A DNA stretch of 64,000 nucleotides, from contig PBNE01000018.1 of NCBI GenBank assembly GCA_002722885.1, positions 3,113-67,112 of the forward strand, in the 5' to 3' direction. The position numbers and the translations under genes are program-made. This document shows, in pieces, positions 55,427 through 64,000 of the stretch; within the stretch, counting starts at the first letter, position 1; each line of letters opens with the position of its first letter. The DNA is from Rhodospirillaceae bacterium (GTDB taxonomy: Bacteria; Pseudomonadota; Alphaproteobacteria; SP197). The notes below the pieces were generated by a model. It worked only from the letters and a program-made list of their open reading frames with translations. It did not search any database and had not been told where the DNA came from.

Positions 55427-56464
55427 CTAAGTCAGGTCCGCGCGGTCGATCACTGAGCAGATCATGGCGAGGTGATCACCGGGTTTGACGACCGGGTTCC
55501 GCCGCCGCACGGCCAGGAGGCCGCTTTGCGGCGCCACAAGTGTGCCGGCAATCATGCCAAAGCGATGAACATCGTGAATCGTCGCCACAAGAGCACCTTC
55601 CTCGACTTCCTGAGCCAGTACGAGATGTGGCTCGGCCAGGCCGTGACAATCGGTCGTAAGCAGTGAAGCGCCGTCGGTGATGTTCAGGAAGGTGGTAGCG
55701 GCTCCCTGCGAATCACCGCCCAGCGCATCGCGCAGGTCGCTGTCGATCAACCCTTCGCGACACAACAGCCGCAGGCAGCCTCGCCAGCCATGATCGAGCG
55801 AGGAGGCCGAGACCGTTCCCATACCGCCAAGCTCACAAGACAGGAATCGCGTGTTCTGACGGTAGGCCGCCGTATCGAAATCACCGGAATAGGGTCCGCC
55901 GATGGGACAGATCATGGTGTGCGGTGCTCCGAAACACTCGGCTGACGCCAGATTGTCCGCATCAAGCTCGGGCTGATCGCCGCGGCAGAGGAAGGCGCAA
56001 TCGACATACTGGGTTGCCGTGCCGCCTGAATGGAAATCGAGGATCAGGTCGGCCATGGCGATTAGATGCTCGTTGACCCATCCTGCAATGGCACGGGTCG
56101 GTCCCTGATCGGTCGCACCGGGAAAGGCCCGGTTCATGTTGCCCTTGTCCAGTGGCGAGACTCGAGCTCTGTCCAGCATGGCCGGCGTGTTGAGCGCCGG
56201 CATCATGATCAGCCGGCCCGAGATCTGATTCGGTGCCAGCGCGGTCATCAGCTGCCGCAAAACGATCTGTCCTTCGTACTCGTCTCCGTGATTGCCGGCT
56301 GTCAGCAGGATCGTCGGCCCGTCACCACCGACAAGAACGCCGATTGGCACACGAATGCTGCTGAAGGCATGCTCGCTGTCGGAGTGATCGAGATCGACAA
56401 ATCCGGCCCGTTTCCCTGGTGCCTCAAAATCAAGGGCGCAGCGCGCCGGCCCAAAGCTCAGCAT
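55427..56464 (-). CDS. Succinylglutamate desuccinylase/aspartoacylase (AstE/AspA, M14-like) family deacylase
   Basis: ILLTAGNHGDEYEG (zinc-ligand H..E block) and LDFHSGG. TGATG overlap with the upstream hyuB-like gene. Confidence 0.85.
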   Translation of the reverse strand: MLSFGPARCALDFEAPGKRAGFVDLDHSDSEHAFSSIRVPIGVLVGGDGPTILLTAGNHGDEYEGQIVLRQLMTALAPNQISGRLIMMPALNTPAMLDRARVSPLDKGNMNRAFPGATDQGPTRAIAGWVNEHLIAMADLILDFHSGGTATQYVDCAFLCRGDQPELDADNLASAECFGAPHTMICPIGGPYSGDFDTAAYRQNTRFLSCELGGMGTVSASSLDHGWRGCLRLLCREGLIDSDLRDALGGDSQGAATTFLNITDGASLLTTDCHGLAEPHLVLAQEVEEGALVATIHDVHRFGMIAGTLVAPQSGLLAVRRRNPVVKPGDHLAMICSVIDRADLT

Positions 56465-58239
56465 CAGTTTTCCCCTTCTTCGTTCGTGAGGCGCCGCCGC
56501 AAGGCAGTCGTCGCGTCCCCATCGACTCCGCCCGATGTATCGAGCACGACGCCGTAAACATCCCGCGCCCTTTGCACCGACACCAGACCTTCGGCAACAT
56601 CATGGGCCACACGGCCGGGTTCCCTTCGATGGGCAGCACCATAACCGCCGCCACCCGGTGAAACACCGGTGACGCAATCGCCCTTCTCCAGCACTAGGGT
56701 CGCCCAACCGTCGGCCGCCTCGTCGTCTCCGGCACGGCGGGTCACGGTGTTGCGTGCCGGGGCACCCGCACCACCACCCCGCGCACCCAGCGCCGGGAAG
56801 GTCGTGCCATCACTTTGATAAAACACCTCCATGCAGGCACCATGAGCCGCAAAGGTGACCTGCGACGCCGGAGCCCCCCGGAACGTCCCGGCACCCTCGC
56901 GATCCGGCACCAGGCGTCGTTCGGTCACGAGCACGGGATGGCGCAGCTCATCGACCTCGACGCTGTCAAAAAACGACATTCCGGCCGTGCCGGTCGTGAT
57001 CATTGCAAGCCAGCCGTCGGCACGCGGGCTTCCTGCTCCCAGCGTGTCGCCCAGGATCAACTGGTCGACGAAGGGCCTGCCGTCCCGTCCCTCCTCGTGG
57101 CCGGAGATCACCGCCTGCGCTGCGGTCTGAACGCCGCCGACCTCGGCCATGCCGTAGCCATCCGCCAGATTGGCAAAGGCTAGGTGCACCGCATTGGTCA
57201 GCCGGTCTGCGACGTTCTGGGTCGCCACTGAACAGCTCGTCGGATGGCGCGGAATTCCCACCACGCAATTCTCGCGCAGAGCCATATCCAGTCGCCGGAA
57301 GCTGCCTGCGTTGGTCGGCACATCAAGACCCAGACTGTTGAACGTCCCCACCATGGCGGCCGTTCGGGCGCAGGCCTCGCTGAGGTTGAGCCCGTTGGGC
57401 AGACAATCGGGGTTGTCGGTGAGATCAACCGCGATCCTGCCTCCCTCAGGGTCGACCGCAATCTCGGCCTTGATCGGGATGCCGTCCGCGGGCGTGCCGG
57501 GGAACGGATCGTGCCGTGTCTGACCGACTGCCGACCCTGCGGGCAGTTCCGCGACGGCCAGCGCCATTCGGCGTTCGCTGTAATCGAACCAGGCGGCGAT
57601 CATCTCGTCCAACCGGTCCCAGCCCATCTCACCGGCCAGCGTGATCAGTTCTCGCTCGCCCACACGCGCGGAGCCGACGCCGGCAAGATAGTCCCCGCGC
57701 CACTGCTCCGGGCTCCGGATGCGCAGTTCACACATTCGAATAAGGTCATCGAGGTCCTCGTAGTCACGCTGCACGCGGGTCGCGGCAAAGATCAATGCAC
57801 CTTCCTCGTACACATCACGGGCGGCAGCGTGATAGGTCGTGGGCACAGAGTTGCCGATGTCGGCCTGGTGGGCCTTGGCCATCACTGTGAAGCGATGGCG
57901 ACCCTGATCATCCATGACAGGCACCAGAACCGAGAGATCGGCCGCGTGGGAACAGCCGTGATAGGGCGAGTTGTGCAGAAACGCGTCGCCAGCCGCCAGG
58001 CCAGGGTGAAAGTCCTGCATCGTCGCTGCCATCTGGTCCGGGCCCGCCATCACGTGGATGGGAAGGCTTTCGGCAGCGGCCACCAGTTCGTTGCCCGCCG
58101 TAAGCACGCAGCAGGAGAAATCCCGACCCGTGTTGATCACGCCGGAGCGCGCAGAACGCAGCAGCGTGTTCTGCATCTTGCGTGCGACCCCTTCCATGCG
58201 CTTGGAGAAGATCGCGAGATCGAGGCCACTCACGGTCAT
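56464..58239 (-). CDS. Hydantoinase B/oxoprolinase family protein
   Basis: FSCCVLTA, NSPYHG.SH..D and ADGW..GG..G blocks typical of HyuB. ATGA overlap with the hyuA-like gene. Confidence 0.9.
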   Translation of the reverse strand: MTVSGLDLAIFSKRMEGVARKMQNTLLRSARSGVINTGRDFSCCVLTAGNELVAAAESLPIHVMAGPDQMAATMQDFHPGLAAGDAFLHNSPYHGCSHAADLSVLVPVMDDQGRHRFTVMAKAHQADIGNSVPTTYHAAARDVYEEGALIFAATRVQRDYEDLDDLIRMCELRIRSPEQWRGDYLAGVGSARVGERELITLAGEMGWDRLDEMIAAWFDYSERRMALAVAELPAGSAVGQTRHDPFPGTPADGIPIKAEIAVDPEGGRIAVDLTDNPDCLPNGLNLSEACARTAAMVGTFNSLGLDVPTNAGSFRRLDMALRENCVVGIPRHPTSCSVATQNVADRLTNAVHLAFANLADGYGMAEVGGVQTAAQAVISGHEEGRDGRPFVDQLILGDTLGAGSPRADGWLAMITTGTAGMSFFDSVEVDELRHPVLVTERRLVPDREGAGTFRGAPASQVTFAAHGACMEVFYQSDGTTFPALGARGGGAGAPARNTVTRRAGDDEAADGWATLVLEKGDCVTGVSPGGGGYGAAHRREPGRVAHDVAEGLVSVQRARDVYGVVLDTSGGVDGDATTALRRRLTNEEGEN

Positions 58240-60314
58240 GACGTCATCTCCCCGCCGACAGTCACAATGAGATTTCCGCTCTCGTCGCGCCTAAAGGTCG
58301 CATCGTCGTCGACCACCAGGGTTGTGACGTCGGTTTCAACAAAAGCAGGCCCCGTGAACATCGCTCCGGGTTCCAGCGAACCGAAGCCGAGGACCGGCAC
58401 CGATTGCCAGCGCCCGCCCAGGAAACCCTGCCGTGTGTTCACCGAACCGATGCGATCACCGCCTTGTTCCAGCATTGCCAGCGGCCCGGAACGCAGGTCA
58501 GCCGAAACACGCGCGCGCCAGTTCACGAATTCAATCTCCGCCCCGCGATCGTCAAACGCAAATATGTCCCGATGCAGTCGGTGGAAGTCCTCGATCAGCG
58601 CGCCAATACCATCTTCGCAGTCGAAGGTGCCATCCCGCAGAGGCAACTTGATCTCCCAAATCTGTTGCGCGTAGCGCGCTTCAACACTGTAGGACACGCG
58701 TGCCGCCTGTGGATGGGCCAGCCGCTGTGCAAAGGCATCACACCGTTTCTTCAGGCTGTTCAGGACCGCTCTGGCGCGGCCGATATCGAAGGCATCGCTC
58801 CGGATGAGCTGAAACTCTGCAACGTCGTCGCTCAACGGGCACAGCAGCCCTCCGACGGCACTGATCGCCGCCCCCGCACCGGGGAACAAAACTGTCGAAC
58901 AACTCAGTCGTCGAGCAATCGCCACGGCATTCAGACCGGCCGCACCGCCACCGCCGATCAGCACCGTCTCACGGGGATCGACACCCTGATTGACTGTGAT
59001 GTCCTCGATCGCGCCGGCCATGGTTTCGGTTGTCAACGCCAGCACAGCCGCCGCGGCCTCCTCCACGTCAAGGCCCATTGGCTCGGCAACTTCCCGTACA
59101 AGCGCCTCACGCGCCAGGTCAGGGTCAAGCGCCATCCGTCCGCCCAGGAAGTAAGCGGGATCGATGTGACCCAGCACGACAGAGGCGTCGGTCACCGTGG
59201 GAAGCCGGCCGCCTGCGCCATAGCAGGCCGGACCGGGCACGGCCCCCGCGCTTTGCGGCCCCACGTACAGGAGCCCGGCGTCGTCCACGCCCGCAATGCT
59301 GCCGCCGCCGGCTCCCACACTCGAGATGTCGACCGACGGAAATCCTGTCATGTGGCCGAGGTAGGGCTGACCGATCCAGGTTTCGCGGGTCTCCGGGATC
59401 TCGCCATCCCGGACCAGCGCCACGTCGTACGTCGTACCGCCGGTGTCCGCCACGATAGCGCGGTGCCCCAATCCAGCCCGCTCGATCAGATGGTTGGCCG
59501 CGACAGGGGCCATAGCCGGGCCCGATTTGACGACGTGAACCGGTGATGCTGCGAGCTCGGCCGCTTCCTTCATCATGCCCTGTGAAGTCACCACCAGTAG
59601 CCTGCCTTCATAGCCGGCACCACGAAGCCGTTCCTCAAGCTGTTCCAGATATGACGTCATGACCGGCTTCAGCGCCGCATCCAGTGCCGTTGCCGACGCA
59701 CGTCTGTATTCGCGCAGCGACGGATTGACTCGGTGAGAAAGGCTGACGGGAAGATCCGGAAAGCGTTCCTGGAGCATTGCACCCACACGCTGCTCGTGAA
59801 TCGGATTAACGATCGACCAAAGAAGGCAGACCGCGATGGCCTCAACTTCTGCAGCCTCGAGCCTGTCCATGACATCAACCAGCCCGCCTTCATCAAGCGG
59901 CTGCACCACGAAACCTGTCACGTCGATCCGTTCAGGCACCTCGTAGGTCAGCGCCCGCGGCACAAAGGGCTCGGGATAGGCAATGCCGTGATCGAACAAC
60001 GGCAGTCCAATGCGGCCGCCCTCGCGCAACATCAGGATATCGGGATGGCCCTTCGTTGTCAGAAAGGCAGTGCGGGCCGTCAAGCCGGTGATCACAGCGT
60101 TGGTTGCCGTGGTCGTGCCATGCACGAAGAGCTCGCAGCTCGCCAGAAGTCTGGTTGTTGTCAGCTCCAATTCGCGTGCAGCCACGTCCAGGACACCAAG
60201 CACGCCGTCCACCGGATTGTCCGGGGTGGTCGGCGCCTTGAAGAGACGCAGCGTGTTACCGTCCTCGATCACCAGATCGGTGAAGGTGCCGCCCGTATCG
60301 ACCGCAAACCGCAT
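58236..60314 (-). CDS. Hydantoinase A/oxoprolinase family protein (ATP-dependent)
   Basis: MRFAVDTGGTFTDLV at the N-terminus, HGTTTATNA and DTGGTTYDV (actin-fold ATPase motifs). Confidence 0.9.
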   Translation of the reverse strand: MRFAVDTGGTFTDLVIEDGNTLRLFKAPTTPDNPVDGVLGVLDVAARELELTTTRLLASCELFVHGTTTATNAVITGLTARTAFLTTKGHPDILMLREGGRIGLPLFDHGIAYPEPFVPRALTYEVPERIDVTGFVVQPLDEGGLVDVMDRLEAAEVEAIAVCLLWSIVNPIHEQRVGAMLQERFPDLPVSLSHRVNPSLREYRRASATALDAALKPVMTSYLEQLEERLRGAGYEGRLLVVTSQGMMKEAAELAASPVHVVKSGPAMAPVAANHLIERAGLGHRAIVADTGGTTYDVALVRDGEIPETRETWIGQPYLGHMTGFPSVDISSVGAGGGSIAGVDDAGLLYVGPQSAGAVPGPACYGAGGRLPTVTDASVVLGHIDPAYFLGGRMALDPDLAREALVREVAEPMGLDVEEAAAAVLALTTETMAGAIEDITVNQGVDPRETVLIGGGGAAGLNAVAIARRLSCSTVLFPGAGAAISAVGGLLCPLSDDVAEFQLIRSDAFDIGRARAVLNSLKKRCDAFAQRLAHPQAARVSYSVEARYAQQIWEIKLPLRDGTFDCEDGIGALIEDFHRLHRDIFAFDDRGAEIEFVNWRARVSADLRSGPLAMLEQGGDRIGSVNTRQGFLGGRWQSVPVLGFGSLEPGAMFTGPAFVETDVTTLVVDDDATFRRDESGNLIVTVGGEMTS

Positions 60315-60488: not shown

Positions 60489-60866
60489 ATGCTCGCCTAT
60501 GTGATGGTCGGCAGCGCCAATCTGAAACGCTCCGCAAAGTTCTACGACGCGGTGATGGATGCACTCGGCTACATCCGAACTGAAACTGAGAAGAGCTACA
60601 TCGGCTACGGGACCAAACGTGCCCCGGATCAGACGGTGTTTTACATCACCCGCCCCTACAACCGTCGCAAGGCAAGCGTGGGCAACGGCACGATGATCAC
60701 TTTGAAGGCGCGATCCCGCAAAGCACTCGATGCCTTCCACGCAGCTGCCCTTGCGAACGGCGGAACCAACGAAGGCAAGCCCGGACCACGGCTCGACGGC
60801 GACCCTACCTGTTACGCATATGCCCGCGACCCCGACGGCAACAAGATCTGCGCCTGCAGCCCCTAG
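60489..60866 (+). CDS. VOC (glyoxalase/bleomycin-resistance) family protein
   Basis: 125 aa. LAYVMVGSANLKRSAKFYDAVMDALG... and YAYARDPDGNKI are the typical VOC ends. Confidence 0.85.
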   Translation: MLAYVMVGSANLKRSAKFYDAVMDALGYIRTETEKSYIGYGTKRAPDQTVFYITRPYNRRKASVGNGTMITLKARSRKALDAFHAAALANGGTNEGKPGPRLDGDPTCYAYARDPDGNKICACSP

Positions 60867-61152
60867 ATCGGTTCGCTGGCGATGGCGCCAGTCAAGAGCG
60901 TCACGTCGGCGTCCCCGATGACGTTCCAGACGTCGAGCTGGATCGAGCCGCCGGTCAGGTCCGCGAAGTCGCCAACCGTCGAAACCAGTCCCTGATCGGC
61001 CGTGTAACGTTCCCAGTCAAACACATCGTTGCTGGCGAAAAACCCATAGGTCTCCGTCCTGTCGGTCGTACCGCCCCGTCAAAGTCGCACGTGACCTGTG
61101 CCTGCGTGCCATTACCTACCTCGCCGCCAGCATCGAGCGGCAATGTGAACAC
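60863..61152 (-). pseudogene. Frameshifted remnant of an unidentified gene (C-terminal about 90 codons)
   Basis: The native-GC minus-strand reading ..PLDAGGEVGNGTQAQVTCDFD switches frame to TETYGFFASNDVFDWERYTADQGLVSTVGDFADLTGGSIQLDVWNVIGDADVTLLTGAIASEPI*. There is no start codon, and the upstream part is replaced by lower-GC DNA. Confidence 0.35.
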
Positions 61153-61411
61153 CGAGCTTTTTGTCAGCCTTGCAAACAGATGTAAGCTCTACAGTTCCGA
61201 GAACTATGCCGAACTGCCAGCCCTATACTTCAAGGATATGGAGACCGACGAGTTTAGCGTTGTGCTTGCGTAAATGTTGTTGAGATACCGCGGGTTCCGA
61301 GAGCACCACTACTTTCAACTGGCCAAGGCTCGGTTCTGAAAGGTAAACACGCGAAAACCGGAGGCTTTAGCTTCCAGTTTTTCTGAATTTCTTAGCGAAT
61401 TTCACAACATT

Positions 61412-61439
61412 TTTACAAACGAATTATATTTGTTATCAT
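61412..61439 (+). promoter_or_regulatory. Sigma70-type promoter candidate for the islet genes
   Basis: TTTACA-N16-TATCAT in an AT-rich stretch, 27 nt upstream of ATG 61466. Confidence 0.45.
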
Positions 61440-61465
61440 TTCATGAATATCAAAATGAGTGTGAC

Positions 61466-61693
61466 ATGAAAAACGAGTCTGTAAAACGTGAGAAATTTGT
61501 GCGCCTAGCTGAAGGTCGAACTCAAGCAGCTTTGAACGCAATTCGGAAGATCGGAAATTTATCAAACATGCGTGCTTACGAGTACACAGATGCCGATATC
61601 AAGAAGATCATCAAAGCACTGAAAGATGCAGTTAGCGATGCTGAACGCAGCTTTTCGTCGACGGGCGAACAATCCGACGCGTTTAAGCTTTAG
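61466..61693 (+). CDS. Small hydrophilic helical protein (75 aa), unknown function
   Basis: MKNESVKREKFVRLAEGRTQAALNAIRKIGNLSNMRAYEYTDADIKKIIKALKDAV. Lies 9 nt upstream of, and co-directional with, the GHKL gene. An alternative TTG start at 61430 overlaps the promoter. Confidence 0.65.
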   Translation: MKNESVKREKFVRLAEGRTQAALNAIRKIGNLSNMRAYEYTDADIKKIIKALKDAVSDAERSFSSTGEQSDAFKL

Positions 61694-61702
61694 GAGAAGT
61701 CC

Positions 61703-63571
61703 ATGGGCTCGGAACCTCTGACGATATACGATGTAAAATTCACGATTCGGCGTATGATCCAGCAGGCACCGAAGAGCACTCTGGTCCGCGAGTTCTTCAA
61801 GAACGCGGAGGAAAATGCTGCGCTAACTCCAGGCGGGCAGGGAAAAATCCGTATCTATCCAGTAACTGTTGATGGGGTTAGAAAGCTCGCCTTTTGGAAT
61901 ACCGGGATTGGCATGGACGAGGTTGAGCTTCGGACGGCGACCGAGATCTCCGCTTCAATCAACAAGCGGATGGGGTTGGATGGCAACTTCGGCATTGGAG
62001 CGAAAGTGTCGGGGCTAGCCGTATCACCTGCGGGAATCCGATACAGGTCCTGTAAGAACGGTACAGTCAACGAAGTAACAATCGGTTATGACGAAACCGA
62101 AGGCGAGTATGTTCGTTTCGCAGTTCAATTTGATGATGGAAAGACGGACACCGTATTTGATGTCACTGAGGTAGTAGAGTCCGAGGGTCACTCAACGGAT
62201 AGCGATTGGACGGAAGTTGTTTTGCTTGGTGAAAGCGACGGACATGACACTGTAGACCAACCCCTTAAGGAGGGGGATTCCCTAGAGCGGAGCTATATCC
62301 CAAGTGAGATCTTTCGCCGCTTTTCGAGATTTGCGCCCGATGTTGAGCTCGATGTCGATACGGCAATGACAAAGGGCGGAGGAAAGGATGAAACCGGCAG
62401 AAACCGATCGGTCAAACCGCTAGAGGCAATTCTCGATGACTTGCCCAGACACGAAATTATCAGCGACGACGAAAGCCGTGTTTCCGTTCGATACATCCAC
62501 GATCCAAAGCACGCCACCTCGAGCCACACTGAAAGTGCTCGTAAAATCCCGGCTGTCGCATCGACGACATTCTGTGCGTTGGTTCATAAAGGCGAGCGTT
62601 ACGACTACAAAACCAAGAAGGCTTGGTCGTCGGCGGCGCCGAACTTTGGTATCCCTTTTGGCTCAAAAGTGCTGACAATTGAAATTCATCTCTCAGACGA
62701 TATGGCCTCGCCGAACCAGTACCGGGATGGGTTAACCGATCCAAATGATCGTTCCCCTCTCGTTGCGCAGGATTTCGATGACTCGGTGCGGGAACTAATG
62801 CCGGATTGGGTAAAGGCGATCATCCAAGCAGAATCTCCAAAGTCGGGAGAAAACCTTGATGACTTGCAGAGTGAGCTGCAGAAGCTGCTAGATGAGTTCA
62901 AGGTGCCGACCCCTGCGTACCGTGAGATTTCCGCAAACGATTCGGTGCGATCCGATACATCGGACCAAGGTGAAGATTCATCAGAGCCGGTTGATGTTGA
63001 TTTCAGTCAGTTCCCCGGCGACATTGACTTCACATTGAGAGAACAGGTCGATGAAGCAATAACGGGGCAACGGGCTAACCCAAATAAGGTCCGCCGCGCT
63101 CCACAAGGCGCAAAGGCGTCAAAAGCACTCCAAGCTTTGGAACGCGTCCCAAAGATCCACATTCTCGATGATCCAACTGATATCGACGATAAGTCGATCA
63201 AAGGAAAAGCCGCCTGCTACTACAAAGACTCGCAAGAGATTTTTGTTAATGGCTTTTATCCAGCCGTCGATCGAATGGCCACAGAACTAGAAGCAGAACT
63301 GGCCGGTGAGGGTGATGCCGAGGTGCGGCGTACAGCGATAATTATGGCGTCAAGACGCTCCATGGCCTTCCGTGTTGGCAAAGCAGTCTGTTATGCGATC
63401 AGTAAGCGCCTAGTTGACGAATGGAATGCAGACGATCTCGATAAGGCAACCTCACCCGAGGCGCTATCCCTAATGGCTGACGATTATCGGCAGGGCATAA
63501 GCGAGGCCAAGCGGCATGCTAAGCAGCAAATCAAGCTTGAGGATGTGGAGAAACTCATAGCATCTAGCTAA
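61703..63571 (+). CDS. GHKL-superfamily (HATPase_c_3/MORC-like) ATPase with uncharacterised C-terminal half (622 aa)
   Basis: Bergerat-fold motifs in the correct order: N-box REFFKNAEENA, G1 box WNTGIGMD, G2 box GNFGIGAK. The remaining about 450 aa have no recognisable domain. Confidence 0.8.
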   Translation: MGSEPLTIYDVKFTIRRMIQQAPKSTLVREFFKNAEENAALTPGGQGKIRIYPVTVDGVRKLAFWNTGIGMDEVELRTATEISASINKRMGLDGNFGIGAKVSGLAVSPAGIRYRSCKNGTVNEVTIGYDETEGEYVRFAVQFDDGKTDTVFDVTEVVESEGHSTDSDWTEVVLLGESDGHDTVDQPLKEGDSLERSYIPSEIFRRFSRFAPDVELDVDTAMTKGGGKDETGRNRSVKPLEAILDDLPRHEIISDDESRVSVRYIHDPKHATSSHTESARKIPAVASTTFCALVHKGERYDYKTKKAWSSAAPNFGIPFGSKVLTIEIHLSDDMASPNQYRDGLTDPNDRSPLVAQDFDDSVRELMPDWVKAIIQAESPKSGENLDDLQSELQKLLDEFKVPTPAYREISANDSVRSDTSDQGEDSSEPVDVDFSQFPGDIDFTLREQVDEAITGQRANPNKVRRAPQGAKASKALQALERVPKIHILDDPTDIDDKSIKGKAACYYKDSQEIFVNGFYPAVDRMATELEAELAGEGDAEVRRTAIIMASRRSMAFRVGKAVCYAISKRLVDEWNADDLDKATSPEALSLMADDYRQGISEAKRHAKQQIKLEDVEKLIASS

Positions 63572-63602
63572 TATCCTTAATCTCCTTTCCACCCAAAATG
63601 CC

Positions 63603-63632
63603 CCCCCGAGCACGACGCTCGGGGGAGATTTT
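63603..63632 (+). terminator. Rho-independent terminator of the islet operon
   Basis: CCCCCGAGC-ACGAC-GCTCGGGGG followed by AGATTTTG, about 30 nt after the stop. Confidence 0.75.
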
Positions 63633-63920
63633 GCGGCAAAAACTGTTTATGCCGCTGACTTCGAACCAAGGCTTTCAGACGCCACAGCCGCTCGAACTTG
63701 CATAACAATCAATTCATGGCTTGCTGAATTCTTCGAGATCTTCTGCGGATCCCACGCCCCCATATCCAGGGCGAGCTTTTAGGCACCGACCAAACGGTCT
63801 ATGTGACGGTGCAGAAAAGCGACAGGGTCATCGACGGCCCAAAGTACCTTTCCCCCGTCAACTTTCATCAAACCTGTCAAACCGTGGAACATGGGCGCAA
63901 CCAAACCGTCGGGGTAAATG

Positions 63921-63956
63921 AAAAAGGGCCTAGCCCATATGAGCTAAGCCCTTTTT
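63921..63956 (-). terminator. Bidirectional-looking hairpin terminator just downstream of the tRNA
   Basis: AAAAAGGGCCTAGC-CCATATGA-GCTAAGCCCTTTTT (one mismatch). On the minus strand the stem is followed by TTTTTCATTT. Confidence 0.6.
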
Positions 63957-63960
63957 CAAT

Positions 63961-64000
63961 TGGTAGCGGGGGTAGGATTTGAACCTACGACCTTCAGGTT
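63961..64000 (-). tRNA. tRNA gene, 3' 40 nt only (T-arm, acceptor 3' strand, encoded CCA); probably tRNA-Met(CAU), initiator-like
   Basis: The reverse complement AACCTGAAGGTCGTAGGTTCAAATCCTACCCCCGCTACCA has T-stem GTAGG/CCTAC, T-loop TTCAAAT and a CCA end. It closely parallels the 3' half of E. coli tRNA-fMet (..AACCCGAAGGTCGTCGGTTCAAATCCGGCCCCCGCAACCA). The anticodon is outside the window. Confidence 0.85.

What the first reader, a model, noticed from the sequence alone, without database searches (positions are those of the whole stretch)
61703..63571. Orphan 622-aa GHKL/MORC-like ATPase with an unassignable C-terminal two-thirds: candidate defence or DNA-sensing module
The first about 105 residues carry the three Bergerat-fold ATP-binding motifs in canonical order. 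These are E-x3-N-A-x2-N/D (REFFKNAEENA), [DN]-x-G-x-G-M (WNTGIGMD) and G-x-F-G-x-G-x-K (GNFGIGAK). That is the HATPase_c_3/MORC-type arrangement rather than a histidine kinase, since there is no DHp/H-box, no TM segment and no receiver partner. The remaining about 450 aa are acidic and low-complexity in the middle (SDTSDQGEDSSEPVDVDFSQFPGD), followed by a helical C-terminal domain I cannot assign. Prokaryotic MORC/paraMORC GHKL ATPases have been proposed on genomic-context grounds to act in restriction-like conflict systems. This one sits in a foreign-composition islet at a tRNA locus with a single tiny partner gene, which is the typical setting of defence cargo. I do not recognise this two-gene architecture as any named system.
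Basis: partly seen in the sequence, partly recalled or inferred. Interest (0 to 1): 0.8.

Follow-up and report, generated by a model that had tools for sequence, protein, structure and literature searches.

The report
Mobile two-gene GHKL ATPase cassette
A real, uncharacterised pair of genes (an Hsp90/MORC-like ATPase with an unusually altered nucleotide pocket, plus a tiny partner) that moves between marine and soil Alphaproteobacteria and often lands among anti-phage genes, so it is a credible but unproven candidate for a new defence module.

Summary
ORF 61703..63571 (+) encodes 622 aa, preceded by a 75-aa gene, in a low-GC islet (0.43-0.52 against 0.60-0.67) abutting a tRNA-Met at the end of an rRNA operon.

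With a deep alignment AlphaFold gives pLDDT 88.3. Foldseek aligns about 400-470 columns (not mapped to residue numbers) to Hsp90, MORC2/3/4, SMCHD1, MutL-N40 and topoisomerase ATPase modules (probability 1.0). I take this as a GHKL ATPase plus transducer domain covering roughly residues 1-400. Only the acidic linker (407-457) and the C-terminal domain (about 462-622) stay unassigned.

It is not an orphan: 1107 clusters at 50% identity are related. The small gene lies 11-24 nt upstream in nearly all of about 68 species loci with both genes. The pair carries its own promoter, is 96-100% identical across different genera named in the record titles, and sits on ICE-like backbones and plasmids but no phage. 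It often lies beside Gabija, AbiE and restriction genes.

The clade replaces the motif II Asp with Asn and the motif IV Gly with Trp, while the catalytic residues stay invariant. TPR-fused relatives sit in polysaccharide loci, so defence is plausible but unshown. No named system matches.

The parts
61150..63960 (.). Low-GC islet between a chromosomal gene and the rrn/tRNA end. Apart from the two genes it holds only non-conserved spacer DNA.
   Evidence: GC 0.43-0.52 against 0.60-0.67 upstream. DNA homology to other loci is limited to 61475-63546. No att-like direct repeat was found.
61412..61439 (+). Sigma-70-type promoter-like site (TTTACA, 16 nt, TATCAT, with TG) ahead of the small gene
   Evidence: Consensus scan. 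A TTGAC(A/T), about 17 nt, TAtA element sits at the same relative place in most of 63 dereplicated loci.
61466..61693 (+). Small partner gene: 75 aa, basic (pI 9.57), with an invariant GNLSN segment and an invariant C-terminal F-x-L. Two helices are inferred from the conservation pattern only.
   Evidence: ORF. Found 11-24 nt upstream of the ATPase gene in nearly all of about 68 species loci. 315 homologues, all standalone 72-104 aa. Alignment A5. No His, so no HEPN Rx4-6H motif.
61703..62242 (+). ATPase gene, residues 1-180: Bergerat (GHKL) nucleotide-binding domain. Motif I E30/N34, motif II N66-x-G68-x-G70 (Asn in place of Asp), motif III G97-x-G99-x-K101, motif IV W169-T170 (Trp in place of Gly).
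   Evidence: Pfam sub-threshold HATPase_c and HATPase_c_3. Profile against PDB hits MORC4/MORC3 and aligns N66 to the motif II Asp. Foldseek. Column counts. The domain boundary at residue 180 is my inference.
62243..62902 (+). ATPase gene, residues 181-400: transducer (S5-like) middle domain with invariant E298 and R341 (candidate gamma-phosphate-sensing basic residue)
   Evidence: pLDDT mostly above 90. Foldseek matches to MutL-N40, MORC, Hsp90 and topoisomerase ATPase modules span 400-468 columns, which I take to cover about residues 1-400. R341 is invariant in 80 of 80. Its role and the domain boundaries are inferred.
62903..63085 (+). ATPase gene, residues 401-461: acidic disordered linker (pI 4.05)
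   Evidence: pLDDT below 50 at 407-457. Composition. Poorly conserved.
63086..63571 (+). ATPase gene, residues 462-622 plus stop: unassigned C-terminal domain (short beta strands, then long helices) with no conserved catalytic-type residues. Probably a dimerisation or partner-binding domain.
   Evidence: Confident model. No PDB sequence hit at E<=10 and no consistent Pfam hit for a profile of this domain only. Only P483, N516, W574 and L588 are nearly invariant. The function is inferred.
63596..63632 (.). GC-rich hairpin 25 nt after the stop codon, terminator-like
   Evidence: Inverted repeat I3 and the terminator scan.
63964..64000 (-). 3' part of tRNA-Met(CAT), cut by the window end. It is the last gene of an rRNA operon (5S and 23S follow on the same strand beyond the window).
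   Evidence: Rfam tRNA model positions 36-71, truncated. The complete gene with 5S and 23S is seen on the identical locus L082.

Best explanation
The two genes form a self-contained, horizontally mobile cassette with its own promoter. The large protein is a divergent GHKL NTPase of the MutL/MORC/Hsp90 type, with a Bergerat nucleotide-binding domain, a transducer domain, an acidic linker and a C-terminal domain that probably holds a dimer together. By analogy with its structural relatives, it most likely works as a nucleotide-driven dimeric clamp that closes on a macromolecule. The small basic protein is its obligate adaptor or regulator. The cassette travels as cargo of ICE-like elements and plasmids and lands at tRNA-proximal hot spots and in defence islands, so its most likely role is in conflict with foreign DNA (anti-phage or anti-plasmid defence). 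No nuclease or other toxin domain is detectable, so the effector step is probably non-nucleolytic, for example trapping or remodelling a target or recruiting a host factor. Shown here: the fold, the conserved catalytic residues, the conserved gene pairing, the own promoter, horizontal transfer, and the neighbourhoods. Inferred: dimeric clamping, the partner's role, the defence function and the effector step.
For: Fold: AF2 pLDDT 88.3, pTM 0.82. Foldseek to Hsp90, TRAP1, MORC2/3/4, SMCHD1, MutL-N40 and GyrB/ParE, probability 1.0, 400-468 aligned columns. Profile against PDB gives MORC4 at E 3.9e-4. An archaeal relative passes the Pfam HATPase_c and HATPase_c_3 cut-offs. Catalytic E30, N34, G97, G99 and R341 are invariant in 80 of 80, and K101 is in 77 of 80. 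Pairing: the small gene lies 11-24 nt upstream in nearly all of about 68 species loci with both genes and persists down to about 31-37% identity. No other gene recurs in more than 12 loci. Own promoter. Homology to other loci is confined to the two genes. Mobility: 96-100% identity between different genera named in the record titles. GC is below the flanks in 57 of 64 loci. By my tally of the tRNA scans, a tRNA 3' end faces the cassette in roughly 11 loci, with several different tRNA identities. It occurs on 7 plasmids and on no phage. Neighbours: Gabija GajA/GajB, AbiEi/AbiEii, type IIG RM, HipA, KAP NTPase, HNH, a caspase-family protein and RES-Xre, next to conjugation or ICE-like backbones. 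Far relatives pair with DndB, HNH and DNA methylases.
Against: No experiment supports any function, and no PADLOC, NCBIfam or PHROGs family matches. The defence association is by neighbourhood only. It is inflated by shared ancestry, because many loci carry the same element. I could not compare it with a whole-genome background; control genes 7-10 kb away in the same loci also hit defence models. Many loci, including this window, have ordinary housekeeping neighbours. TPR-fused members of the same clade sit in polysaccharide loci in 4 of 4 sampled cases. No effector domain was found. The protein is acidic (pI 4.87), which fits a protein-client chaperone better than a DNA clamp. From background knowledge, motif II Asp-to-Asn abolishes ATP binding in Hsp90 and GyrB, so even ATP use is uncertain.
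Confidence: 0.5

Rival explanations
1. The cassette serves the mobile element and not the host. It could be an anti-defence, establishment, exclusion or addiction (toxin-antitoxin-like) module of ICE-like elements and plasmids, with the small protein neutralising or directing the ATPase.
For: In about 10 loci and 2 annotated plasmids it is the first gene pair after the conjugation or ICE-like backbone (DUF932/ParB/toprim/DUF2493, or relaxase-T4CP). The pairing is tight and has its own promoter, as in addiction modules. Near-identical copies occur across different genera.
Against: Most loci, including this window, show the pair with no mobile-element genes nearby. An entry-phase anti-defence gene would have little use there. 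The downstream genes are defence systems, which is typical of cargo regions. A 622-aa ATPase is unlike known small toxins.
Confidence: 0.2
2. It is an Hsp90-like chaperone or assembly ATPase with a small co-factor. It would act on protein clients (for example envelope or polysaccharide machinery) rather than in conflict with foreign DNA.
For: The top Foldseek hits are Hsp90-family chaperones. The protein is acidic with a charged linker, pI 4.87. The C-terminal domain has no enzymatic signature. Same-clade relatives fuse the module to TPR arrays and lie in glycosyltransferase/AlgX-like loci in 4 of 4 cases.
Against: The 620-aa form with the small partner is never in those polysaccharide loci. 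It is patchy, horizontally transferred and low in GC. It lies beside defence genes and conjugation backbones. Foldseek scores for MORC, MutL and topoisomerase modules are just as good. There is no Pfam HSP90 match.
Confidence: 0.15
3. It is a two-gene regulator of whatever operon lies downstream, a Cap-like controller comparable to CapK/CapS, in which a GHKL kinase modifies a small repressor.
For: A GHKL protein plus a small protein lie upstream of and co-directional with diverse immune genes (Gabija 56 nt downstream on pAtK224b; a 461-aa unknown gene, AbiE). The precedent is PMC13373217.
Against: CapK is HTH-STAS-GHKL and CapS is STAS-wHTH, and no STAS or HTH is detected here. The fold includes a transducer domain of the MutL/Hsp90 type, not an anti-sigma kinase. 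Only 29 of 64 loci have a close co-directional downstream gene. In this window the pair is followed by a terminator-like hairpin and a convergent tRNA.
Confidence: 0.07
4. It is a degenerate, nucleotide-independent GHKL pseudo-enzyme, or a decaying remnant with no current function.
For: Motif II Asp is replaced by Asn and motif IV Gly by Trp. The Pfam scores are below threshold.
Against: Conservation is strong along the full length (72% mean column identity among about 60%-identical proteins). E30, N34, G97, G99 and R341 are invariant across 80 sequences down to 23% identity. The ORFs are intact in about 68 species, and the promoter is conserved.
Confidence: 0.05

Closest known systems
Prokaryotic MORC / paraMORC1-5 GHKL ATPases (Iyer, Abhiman and Aravind 2008, PMC2292703)
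   Same: An N-terminal GHKL domain followed by an S5-type transducer domain with a conserved basic residue. A patchy, horizontally transferred distribution. Distant members of the same superfamily sit next to DNA methylases, HNH nucleases and DndB.
   Different: The MORC S5 motif GhXhhpXXRhl is absent. There is no recurrent SFII helicase, methylase or nuclease partner; the conserved partner is instead a 75-aa protein. There is no C-terminal nuclease or TIR domain. Motif II has Asn and motif IV has Trp.
Hsp90 / HtpG / TRAP1 chaperones
   Same: They are the best structural matches (E 5.6e-12). Shared features are an acidic protein, an order of ATPase domain then middle domain then C-terminal domain with a charged linker, and an invariant Arg in the middle domain. 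Relatives are fused to TPR repeats, and TPR proteins are classic Hsp90 partners (background knowledge).
   Different: There is no Pfam HSP90 match. The linker lies after the middle domain rather than before it. The gene is accessory, mobile and paired with a small gene. The adenine-contacting Asp is replaced.
VcSduA / Shedu type I-D (paraMORC3), a validated GHKL-containing defence protein (PMC12137116)
   Same: An N-terminal GHKL ATPase with a clamp-like middle domain in a defence context.
   Different: VcSduA carries a C-terminal DUF4263 PD-(D/E)xK nuclease and acts alone. Here there is no nuclease, no PADLOC Shedu hit, and there is an obligate small partner.
CapK/CapS controller pair (PMC13373217)
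   Same: A two-gene unit with a GHKL protein and a small protein upstream of diverse immune operons.
   Different: CapK is HTH-STAS-GHKL of the anti-sigma kinase type and CapS is STAS-wHTH. Neither domain set is present here, and the pair often stands alone.
Phage rIIA proteins
   Same: A GHKL plus transducer fold. They are the top matches in the viral structure library.
   Different: The similarity is generic, no better than to cellular GHKL proteins. No homologue occurs in 50,697 phage records.

Membership tests
GHKL (Bergerat-fold) ATPase superfamily | Bergerat alpha/beta sandwich fold | tested here: met
   Foldseek probability 1.0, E 5.6e-12 to 1e-9, to many GHKL structures, using a model with pLDDT 88.3.
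GHKL (Bergerat-fold) ATPase superfamily | Motif I (N-box): catalytic Glu and Mg-binding Asn, ExxxN | tested here: met
   E30 and N34 are invariant in 80 of 80 and align to the MORC3/4 N-box.
GHKL (Bergerat-fold) ATPase superfamily | Motif II (G1 box) DxGxG with the adenine-contacting Asp | tested here: not met
   The glycines are present (G68, G70), but the Asp position is Asn in 80 of 80 and 96 of 96 clade members. Asp is retained only in far relatives.
GHKL (Bergerat-fold) ATPase superfamily | Motif III (G2 box) GxxGxG | tested here: met
   N95-F-G97-I-G99-A-K101, with G97 and G99 invariant.
GHKL (Bergerat-fold) ATPase superfamily | Motif IV G-T | tested here: inconclusive
   T170 is conserved (76 of 80), but the preceding Gly is Trp (75 of 80). 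Far relatives have GHGT.
GHKL (Bergerat-fold) ATPase superfamily | Pfam HATPase_c / HATPase_c_3 at the curated cut-off | tested here: not met
   17.2 bits against 26.4 and 14.9 against 25 for this protein. The relative in L077 passes both, at 28.4 and 27.6.
MORC family (sensu Iyer 2008) | GHKL plus S5-fold domain providing a conserved basic residue | tested here: met
   Foldseek matches to MORC, MutL-N40 and Hsp90 modules span 400-468 columns, long enough to include the transducer domain. R341 is invariant. Its contact with nucleotide was not tested.
MORC family (sensu Iyer 2008) | MORC-specific S5 motif GhXhhpXXRhl | tested here: not met
   The regular expression finds it in 0 of 80 family members, and no near-match exists in the window protein.
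MORC family (sensu Iyer 2008) | Operon or neighbourhood with an SFII helicase, DNA methylase or restriction nuclease | tested here: not met
   No neighbour recurs in more than 12 of about 75 loci, and the only constant partner is the 75-aa gene.
paraMORC1-5 | Family-specific C-terminal extension (RE-fold nuclease, TIR, HxH domain, ExxxH in S5) and RM-type neighbourhood | tested here: not met
   There is no nuclease or TIR hit in Pfam or PADLOC. The C-terminal domain has no PDB or Pfam match. The neighbourhoods are variable. Sequence profiles of the paraMORC families were not available, so direct profile membership was not tested.
Hsp90/HtpG | Pfam HSP90 middle and C-terminal domains; core, vertically inherited gene | tested here: not met
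   There is no HSP90 Pfam hit. The gene is patchy, horizontally transferred and accessory.
Shedu type I-D (VcSduA) | C-terminal DUF4263 PD-(D/E)xK nuclease | tested here: not met
   No DUF4263 hit in Pfam and no Shedu hit in PADLOC.
CapK/CapS | STAS and HTH domains in both proteins; anti-sigma-kinase-type GHKL | tested here: not met
   No STAS or HTH Pfam hits. The fold includes a MutL/Hsp90-type transducer. The partner is only 75 aa.
HEPN (DUF4145) for the small partner | HEPN domain of about 110-150 aa with an Rx4-6H motif | tested here: not met
   Only a 37-residue sub-threshold match (17.8 bits against 23.1). The protein is 75 aa with no histidine.
Histidine kinase / two-component system | DHp/H-box domain, often TM segments, and a cognate receiver | tested here: not met
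   No HisKA or receiver hits, no TM segment, and the fold matches MutL/MORC/Hsp90-type ATPases with a transducer domain.

The most novel reading that the evidence does not exclude
The cassette is a new kind of non-nucleolytic immune or conflict module. Its Hsp90/MORC-like clamp would have a re-tuned nucleotide pocket (Asn for the adenine-contacting Asp and Trp for the motif IV Gly, with the hydrolysis residues intact). It would then use or sense a nucleotide other than ATP (for example GTP or a modified or signalling nucleotide) and act on its target by trapping or remodelling rather than cutting, with the 75-aa basic protein as the target-recognition or release factor.
Probability: 0.12. Interest if true: 0.8.

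Novelty: new variant of a known kind. Interest (0 to 1): 0.55.

Why it matters
GHKL ATPases (MutL, MORC, Hsp90, topoisomerases) are central machines. Their prokaryotic conflict-system relatives were predicted in 2008, but few have been tested. This cassette is a large family that no source names (over 1000 clusters at 50% identity) and that moves between different genera of Alphaproteobacteria, including marine roseobacters, rhizobia and sphingomonads. It has a fixed small partner and no recognisable effector. If it is a defence system, it would add a GHKL-based mechanism that lacks a nuclease. Whatever its role, the clade-wide Asp-to-Asn and Gly-to-Trp changes in the base-binding pocket offer a natural experiment on nucleotide specificity in the Bergerat fold. 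The split between the mobile two-gene form and the TPR-fused form in polysaccharide loci also warns against inferring defence from fold plus islet alone.

Tried and rejected
These approaches gave nothing or were rejected.

- **Single-sequence PDB search:** only chance hits.
- **PADLOC, NCBIfam and PHROGs on both proteins:** nothing for the ATPase.
- **First AlphaFold run on a shallow alignment of 22 sequences:** poor, pLDDT 59.5. It was replaced by the 80-sequence run.
- **Viral structure library:** only generic GHKL hits such as rIIA and topoisomerase II.
- **Profile of the C-terminal domain alone against PDB sequences and Pfam:** no match. I could not search its structure separately because models cannot be cropped.
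- **HEPN/DUF4145 lead for the small protein:** rejected, because it is a short sub-threshold hit and the protein has no histidine.
- **CapK/CapS identity:** rejected on domain content.
- **Shedu type I-D identity:** rejected.
- **att-type direct repeats bounding the islet:** none convincing.
- **Empty-site search in metagenomes using the left-flank junction:** returned only the window's own contig.
- **Rfam scan of the islet:** only the truncated tRNA.
- **Phage record search:** no homologue.
- **The 78-aa ORF upstream of relative P0125:** low-complexity, not the partner.
- **Literature searches for a named GHKL or Hsp90-like defence system with this architecture:** none found.
Full report
**1. 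Observation**

The ORF at 61703..63571 (+) is real and encodes 622 aa. A 75-aa ORF (61466..61693, +) ends 9 nt upstream of it, and GGAG overlaps that ORF's stop codon. GC falls from 0.60-0.67 to 0.43-0.52 at about 61100 and stays near 0.51 to the window end.

ARAGORN finds no tRNA in the window. However, the last 37 nt are the 3' half of a tRNA on the minus strand (Rfam model positions 36-71). The identical locus on contig L082 shows a complete tRNA-Met(CAT), then 5S rRNA and the 3' end of 23S rRNA on the same strand.

**2. What the large protein is**

Sequence libraries alone are weak. HATPase_c scores 17.2 bits (cut-off 26.4) and HATPase_c_3 scores 14.9 bits (cut-off 25). PADLOC, NCBIfam and PHROGs return nothing for it.

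A shallow alignment gave a poor model (pLDDT 59.5). An 80-sequence alignment reaching 23% identity gave pLDDT 88.3 and pTM 0.82, with only residues 407-457 disordered.

Foldseek against the PDB returns Hsp90-family chaperones (8eoa_B, E 5.6e-12), TRAP1, GRP94, MORC2/3/4, SMCHD1, MutL-N40 (TM-score 0.56-0.58 normalised to the target) and the GyrB, ParE and topoisomerase II ATPase modules. All have probability 1.0 over 400-468 aligned columns. The output does not map those columns to query residues. I take them to cover roughly residues 1-400, that is a Bergerat ATPase domain plus a transducer (S5-like) domain. That is the architecture of the MutL/MORC/Hsp90/topoisomerase branch of GHKL and not of histidine kinases.

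The family profile's best PDB sequence hits are MORC4 and MORC3 (E 4e-4 to 9e-4). A distant archaeal relative passes both Pfam cut-offs (28.4 and 27.6 bits), so the homology is also supported by transitivity.

The 'unassignable two-thirds' therefore shrinks to the acidic linker and a C-terminal domain of about 160 aa (462-622). That domain has no PDB sequence match at E<=10 and no consistent Pfam hit. It also has no conserved catalytic-type residues; only P483, N516, W574 and L588 are nearly invariant.

**3. An altered nucleotide pocket**

Across 80 aligned relatives E30, N34, K61, G97, G99, G111, G176, T183, E298, R341 and P367 are invariant. The motif II position that is Asp in GHKL ATPases is Asn in 80 of 80. 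It is also Asn in all 96 retrieved representatives where the motif could be located, including the TPR-fused forms. Motif IV reads W-T (79) or F-T (2) instead of G-T.

The MORC alignment places N66 on the motif II Asp. The most distant relatives have the canonical forms 'IDTGIGM', 'IDNGVGM' and 'TDTGEGI', with motif IV 'GHGT'. They come from a Solirubrobacterales, a Poseidoniaceae archaeon and a gammaproteobacterium. Two changes at positions that, from background knowledge, line the adenine pocket therefore arose together in this clade, while the hydrolysis residues stayed fixed.

Also from background knowledge, D-to-N at this position abolishes ATP binding in Hsp90 and GyrB. So either the pocket compensates or the base specificity changed. 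I could not test this here.

**4. The partner and the unit of inheritance**

In 80 loci from one-genome-per-species collections, the small gene lies 11-24 nt upstream of the ATPase gene in nearly all of about 68 loci that have a close homologue. It persists with ATPases down to about 31-37% identity.

It has 315 homologues, all standalone proteins of 72-104 aa. The alignment shows an invariant GNLSN segment, an invariant C-terminal F-x-L, no histidine, and pI 9.57. I infer two helices flanking GNLSN from the conservation pattern; its structure was not predicted. The weak DUF4145 (HEPN) hit covers only 37 residues and is not credible.

Clustering all neighbouring ORFs shows no third gene present in more than 12 loci. 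DNA homology between the window and other loci is confined to 61475-63546. A TTGAC(A/T), about 17 nt, TAtA promoter travels with the pair. The conserved unit is the two genes plus their promoter, with no element ends and no att repeats.

**5. Mobility and neighbourhoods**

- **Identity across genera.** The ATPase is 98-100% identical between Maricaulis, Hirschia and Pseudooceanicola. It is 96-97% identical between Ruegeria, Minwuia and Hoeflea, and between Oceaniovalibus and Erythrobacter.
- **Composition and tRNAs.** Cassette GC is below flank GC in 57 of 64 loci. By my tally of the tRNA scans, tRNA genes of several identities face the cassette with their 3' ends in roughly 11 loci.
- **Replicons.** The ATPase is on 7 of 72,556 plasmids and on none of 50,697 phage records.
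- **Recurrent neighbours.** These are Gabija (GajA 613 bits, GajB 598 bits), AbiEi/AbiEii, a type IIG restriction-methylase, HipA, and genes I read as an ICE backbone (ParB_N, DUF7146-Toprim, YAcAr).
- **Annotated plasmids.** Two show conjugation backbone, then the pair, then a Gabija-like pair, a caspase-family protein, a restriction endonuclease, AbiE and RES-Xre.
- **Immediate neighbours.** Of 128 scanned, about 8 are OLD/GajA/AriA ATPases, 4 AbiEi, 4 KAP NTPases, 3 UvrD helicases, 3 integrases and 2 HNH nucleases, and 189 PADLOC families were hit at 1e-10.
- **Controls.** Genes 7-10 kb away in the same loci hit 43 families, including QatA, CARF, a CBASS cyclase and PifA.

This supports a defence-island or cargo setting, with three caveats. 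Many loci share ancestry. I had no whole-genome background. Many neighbours are ordinary metabolic genes, as in this window.

**6. Evidence that limits the defence reading**

Relatives of 825-1394 aa fuse the same ATPase module to C-terminal TPR arrays. All four sampled lie in polysaccharide loci with glycosyltransferases, WcbI, AlgX/SGNH-like proteins and a sugar epimerase. None has the small partner.

Other relatives pair with DndB, an HNH nuclease or DNA methylases, one of them in a prophage-like region. That matches the restriction-like theme described for paraMORCs. The module is thus a portable ATPase used in several settings. Only the 620-aa form with the small partner shows the mobile, defence-adjacent pattern.

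**7. Mechanism**

Best supported: a nucleotide-driven dimeric clamp with a small adaptor, acting in conflict with foreign DNA and without a nuclease of its own.

- **Shown:** the fold, the catalytic residues, the pairing, the promoter, horizontal transfer and the contexts.
- **Inferred:** dimerisation through the C-terminal domain, R341 as the gamma-phosphate sensor, the partner's role, and the defence function itself.

The acidic nature of the ATPase (pI 4.87) and the Hsp90-like hits keep a protein-client mechanism open.

The rivals are a function that benefits the mobile element, a chaperone role, a Cap-like regulator and a pseudo-enzyme. They are weighed in the rival explanations.

**8. Comparison with known families**

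It belongs to the GHKL superfamily by fold and by motifs I and III, but it departs at motif II and partly at motif IV.

- **MORC:** not a member, because the S5 signature motif is absent in 0 of 80 and the helicase or RM neighbourhood is lacking.
- **paraMORC1-5:** it does not fit as described, having no nuclease, TIR or HxH extension and no RM operon.
- **Shedu type I-D:** not a member, because there is no DUF4263.
- **CapK/CapS:** not a member, because there is no STAS or HTH.
- **Hsp90:** not a member.

No source gives any homologue a name other than 'hypothetical' or 'ATP-binding protein', and no paper in the searchable library describes it.

**9. Verdict**

The feature is real. The GHKL reading is right. 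'Orphan' and 'unassignable two-thirds' are wrong. The defence reading is plausible but rests on context only. It is a new variant within the known kind of prokaryotic MORC/Hsp90-like GHKL conflict-associated ATPases, with an unusual nucleotide pocket and a fixed small partner. Interest is moderate (0.55).

Noticed in passing
L082:2979-3724 (continuation of the window beyond 64000): The window ends inside tRNA-Met(CAT). 5S rRNA and the 3' end of 23S rRNA follow on the minus strand, so the islet abuts the end of an rRNA operon. This probably explains why all four contigs carrying the identical gene are short (under 5 kb).
   Followed up: yes
L022:4364-5749 (+); also L011-L014, L021, L024, L025; L085:10932-12317 (WP_249994690.1): A conserved 461-aa protein with no Pfam or PADLOC hit lies directly downstream of the cassette, co-directional, in 8 loci. 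On a Dinoroseobacter plasmid it sits between the cassette and a Gabija-like pair. It could be an optional third component or another unknown defence gene.
   Followed up: partly
L087, L088/L089, L090, L091: TPR-fused relatives of the ATPase (1081-1394 aa) lie in glycosyltransferase/AlgX-like polysaccharide loci. In L088, L089 and L090 they are followed by a Pfam-less gene of about 565 aa. The L088 copy contains an SGGYDS motif, which I recognise as a PP-loop (asparagine-synthetase-like) signature.
   Followed up: partly
L063:8514-9854; L077:11831-12934; L078:8762-9751; L093:7860-8597: More distant relatives of the ATPase pair with DndB (96.9 bits), an HNH endonuclease, an N6/N4 DNA methylase, and a C5 DNA methylase overlapping the ATPase stop codon. 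The last is in a prophage-like region with YqaJ, ERF, GcrA and ParB-MT-A70.
   Followed up: partly
window 60863-61152 (minus strand): Between the 125-aa gene ending at 60866 and the GC drop there are only short overlapping minus-strand ORFs (53 and 65 aa) in still high-GC DNA. This may be the remnant of a gene truncated when the islet arrived. It was not examined further.
   Followed up: no
window 63916-63961: A 23-nt perfect-spacing inverted repeat (87% complementary) lies immediately 3' of the tRNA-Met on the minus strand. It is likely the terminator of the rRNA operon.
   Followed up: no
L059:565-1761 (-) and equivalents; L086:7170-8363: The 398-aa gene divergent from the cassette in about 10 ICE-like loci gave no Pfam hit at E<=0.001. 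RefSeq annotates the equivalent gene in L086, which is the same length and in the same position, as a DUF932 domain protein. I did not check their sequence identity.
   Followed up: no
window 56464-60314 (minus strand): Two large adjacent ORFs (692 and 591 aa) upstream of the islet look to me like a hydantoinase/oxoprolinase A and B subunit pair, ordinary chromosomal metabolism. No tool was run on them.
   Followed up: no
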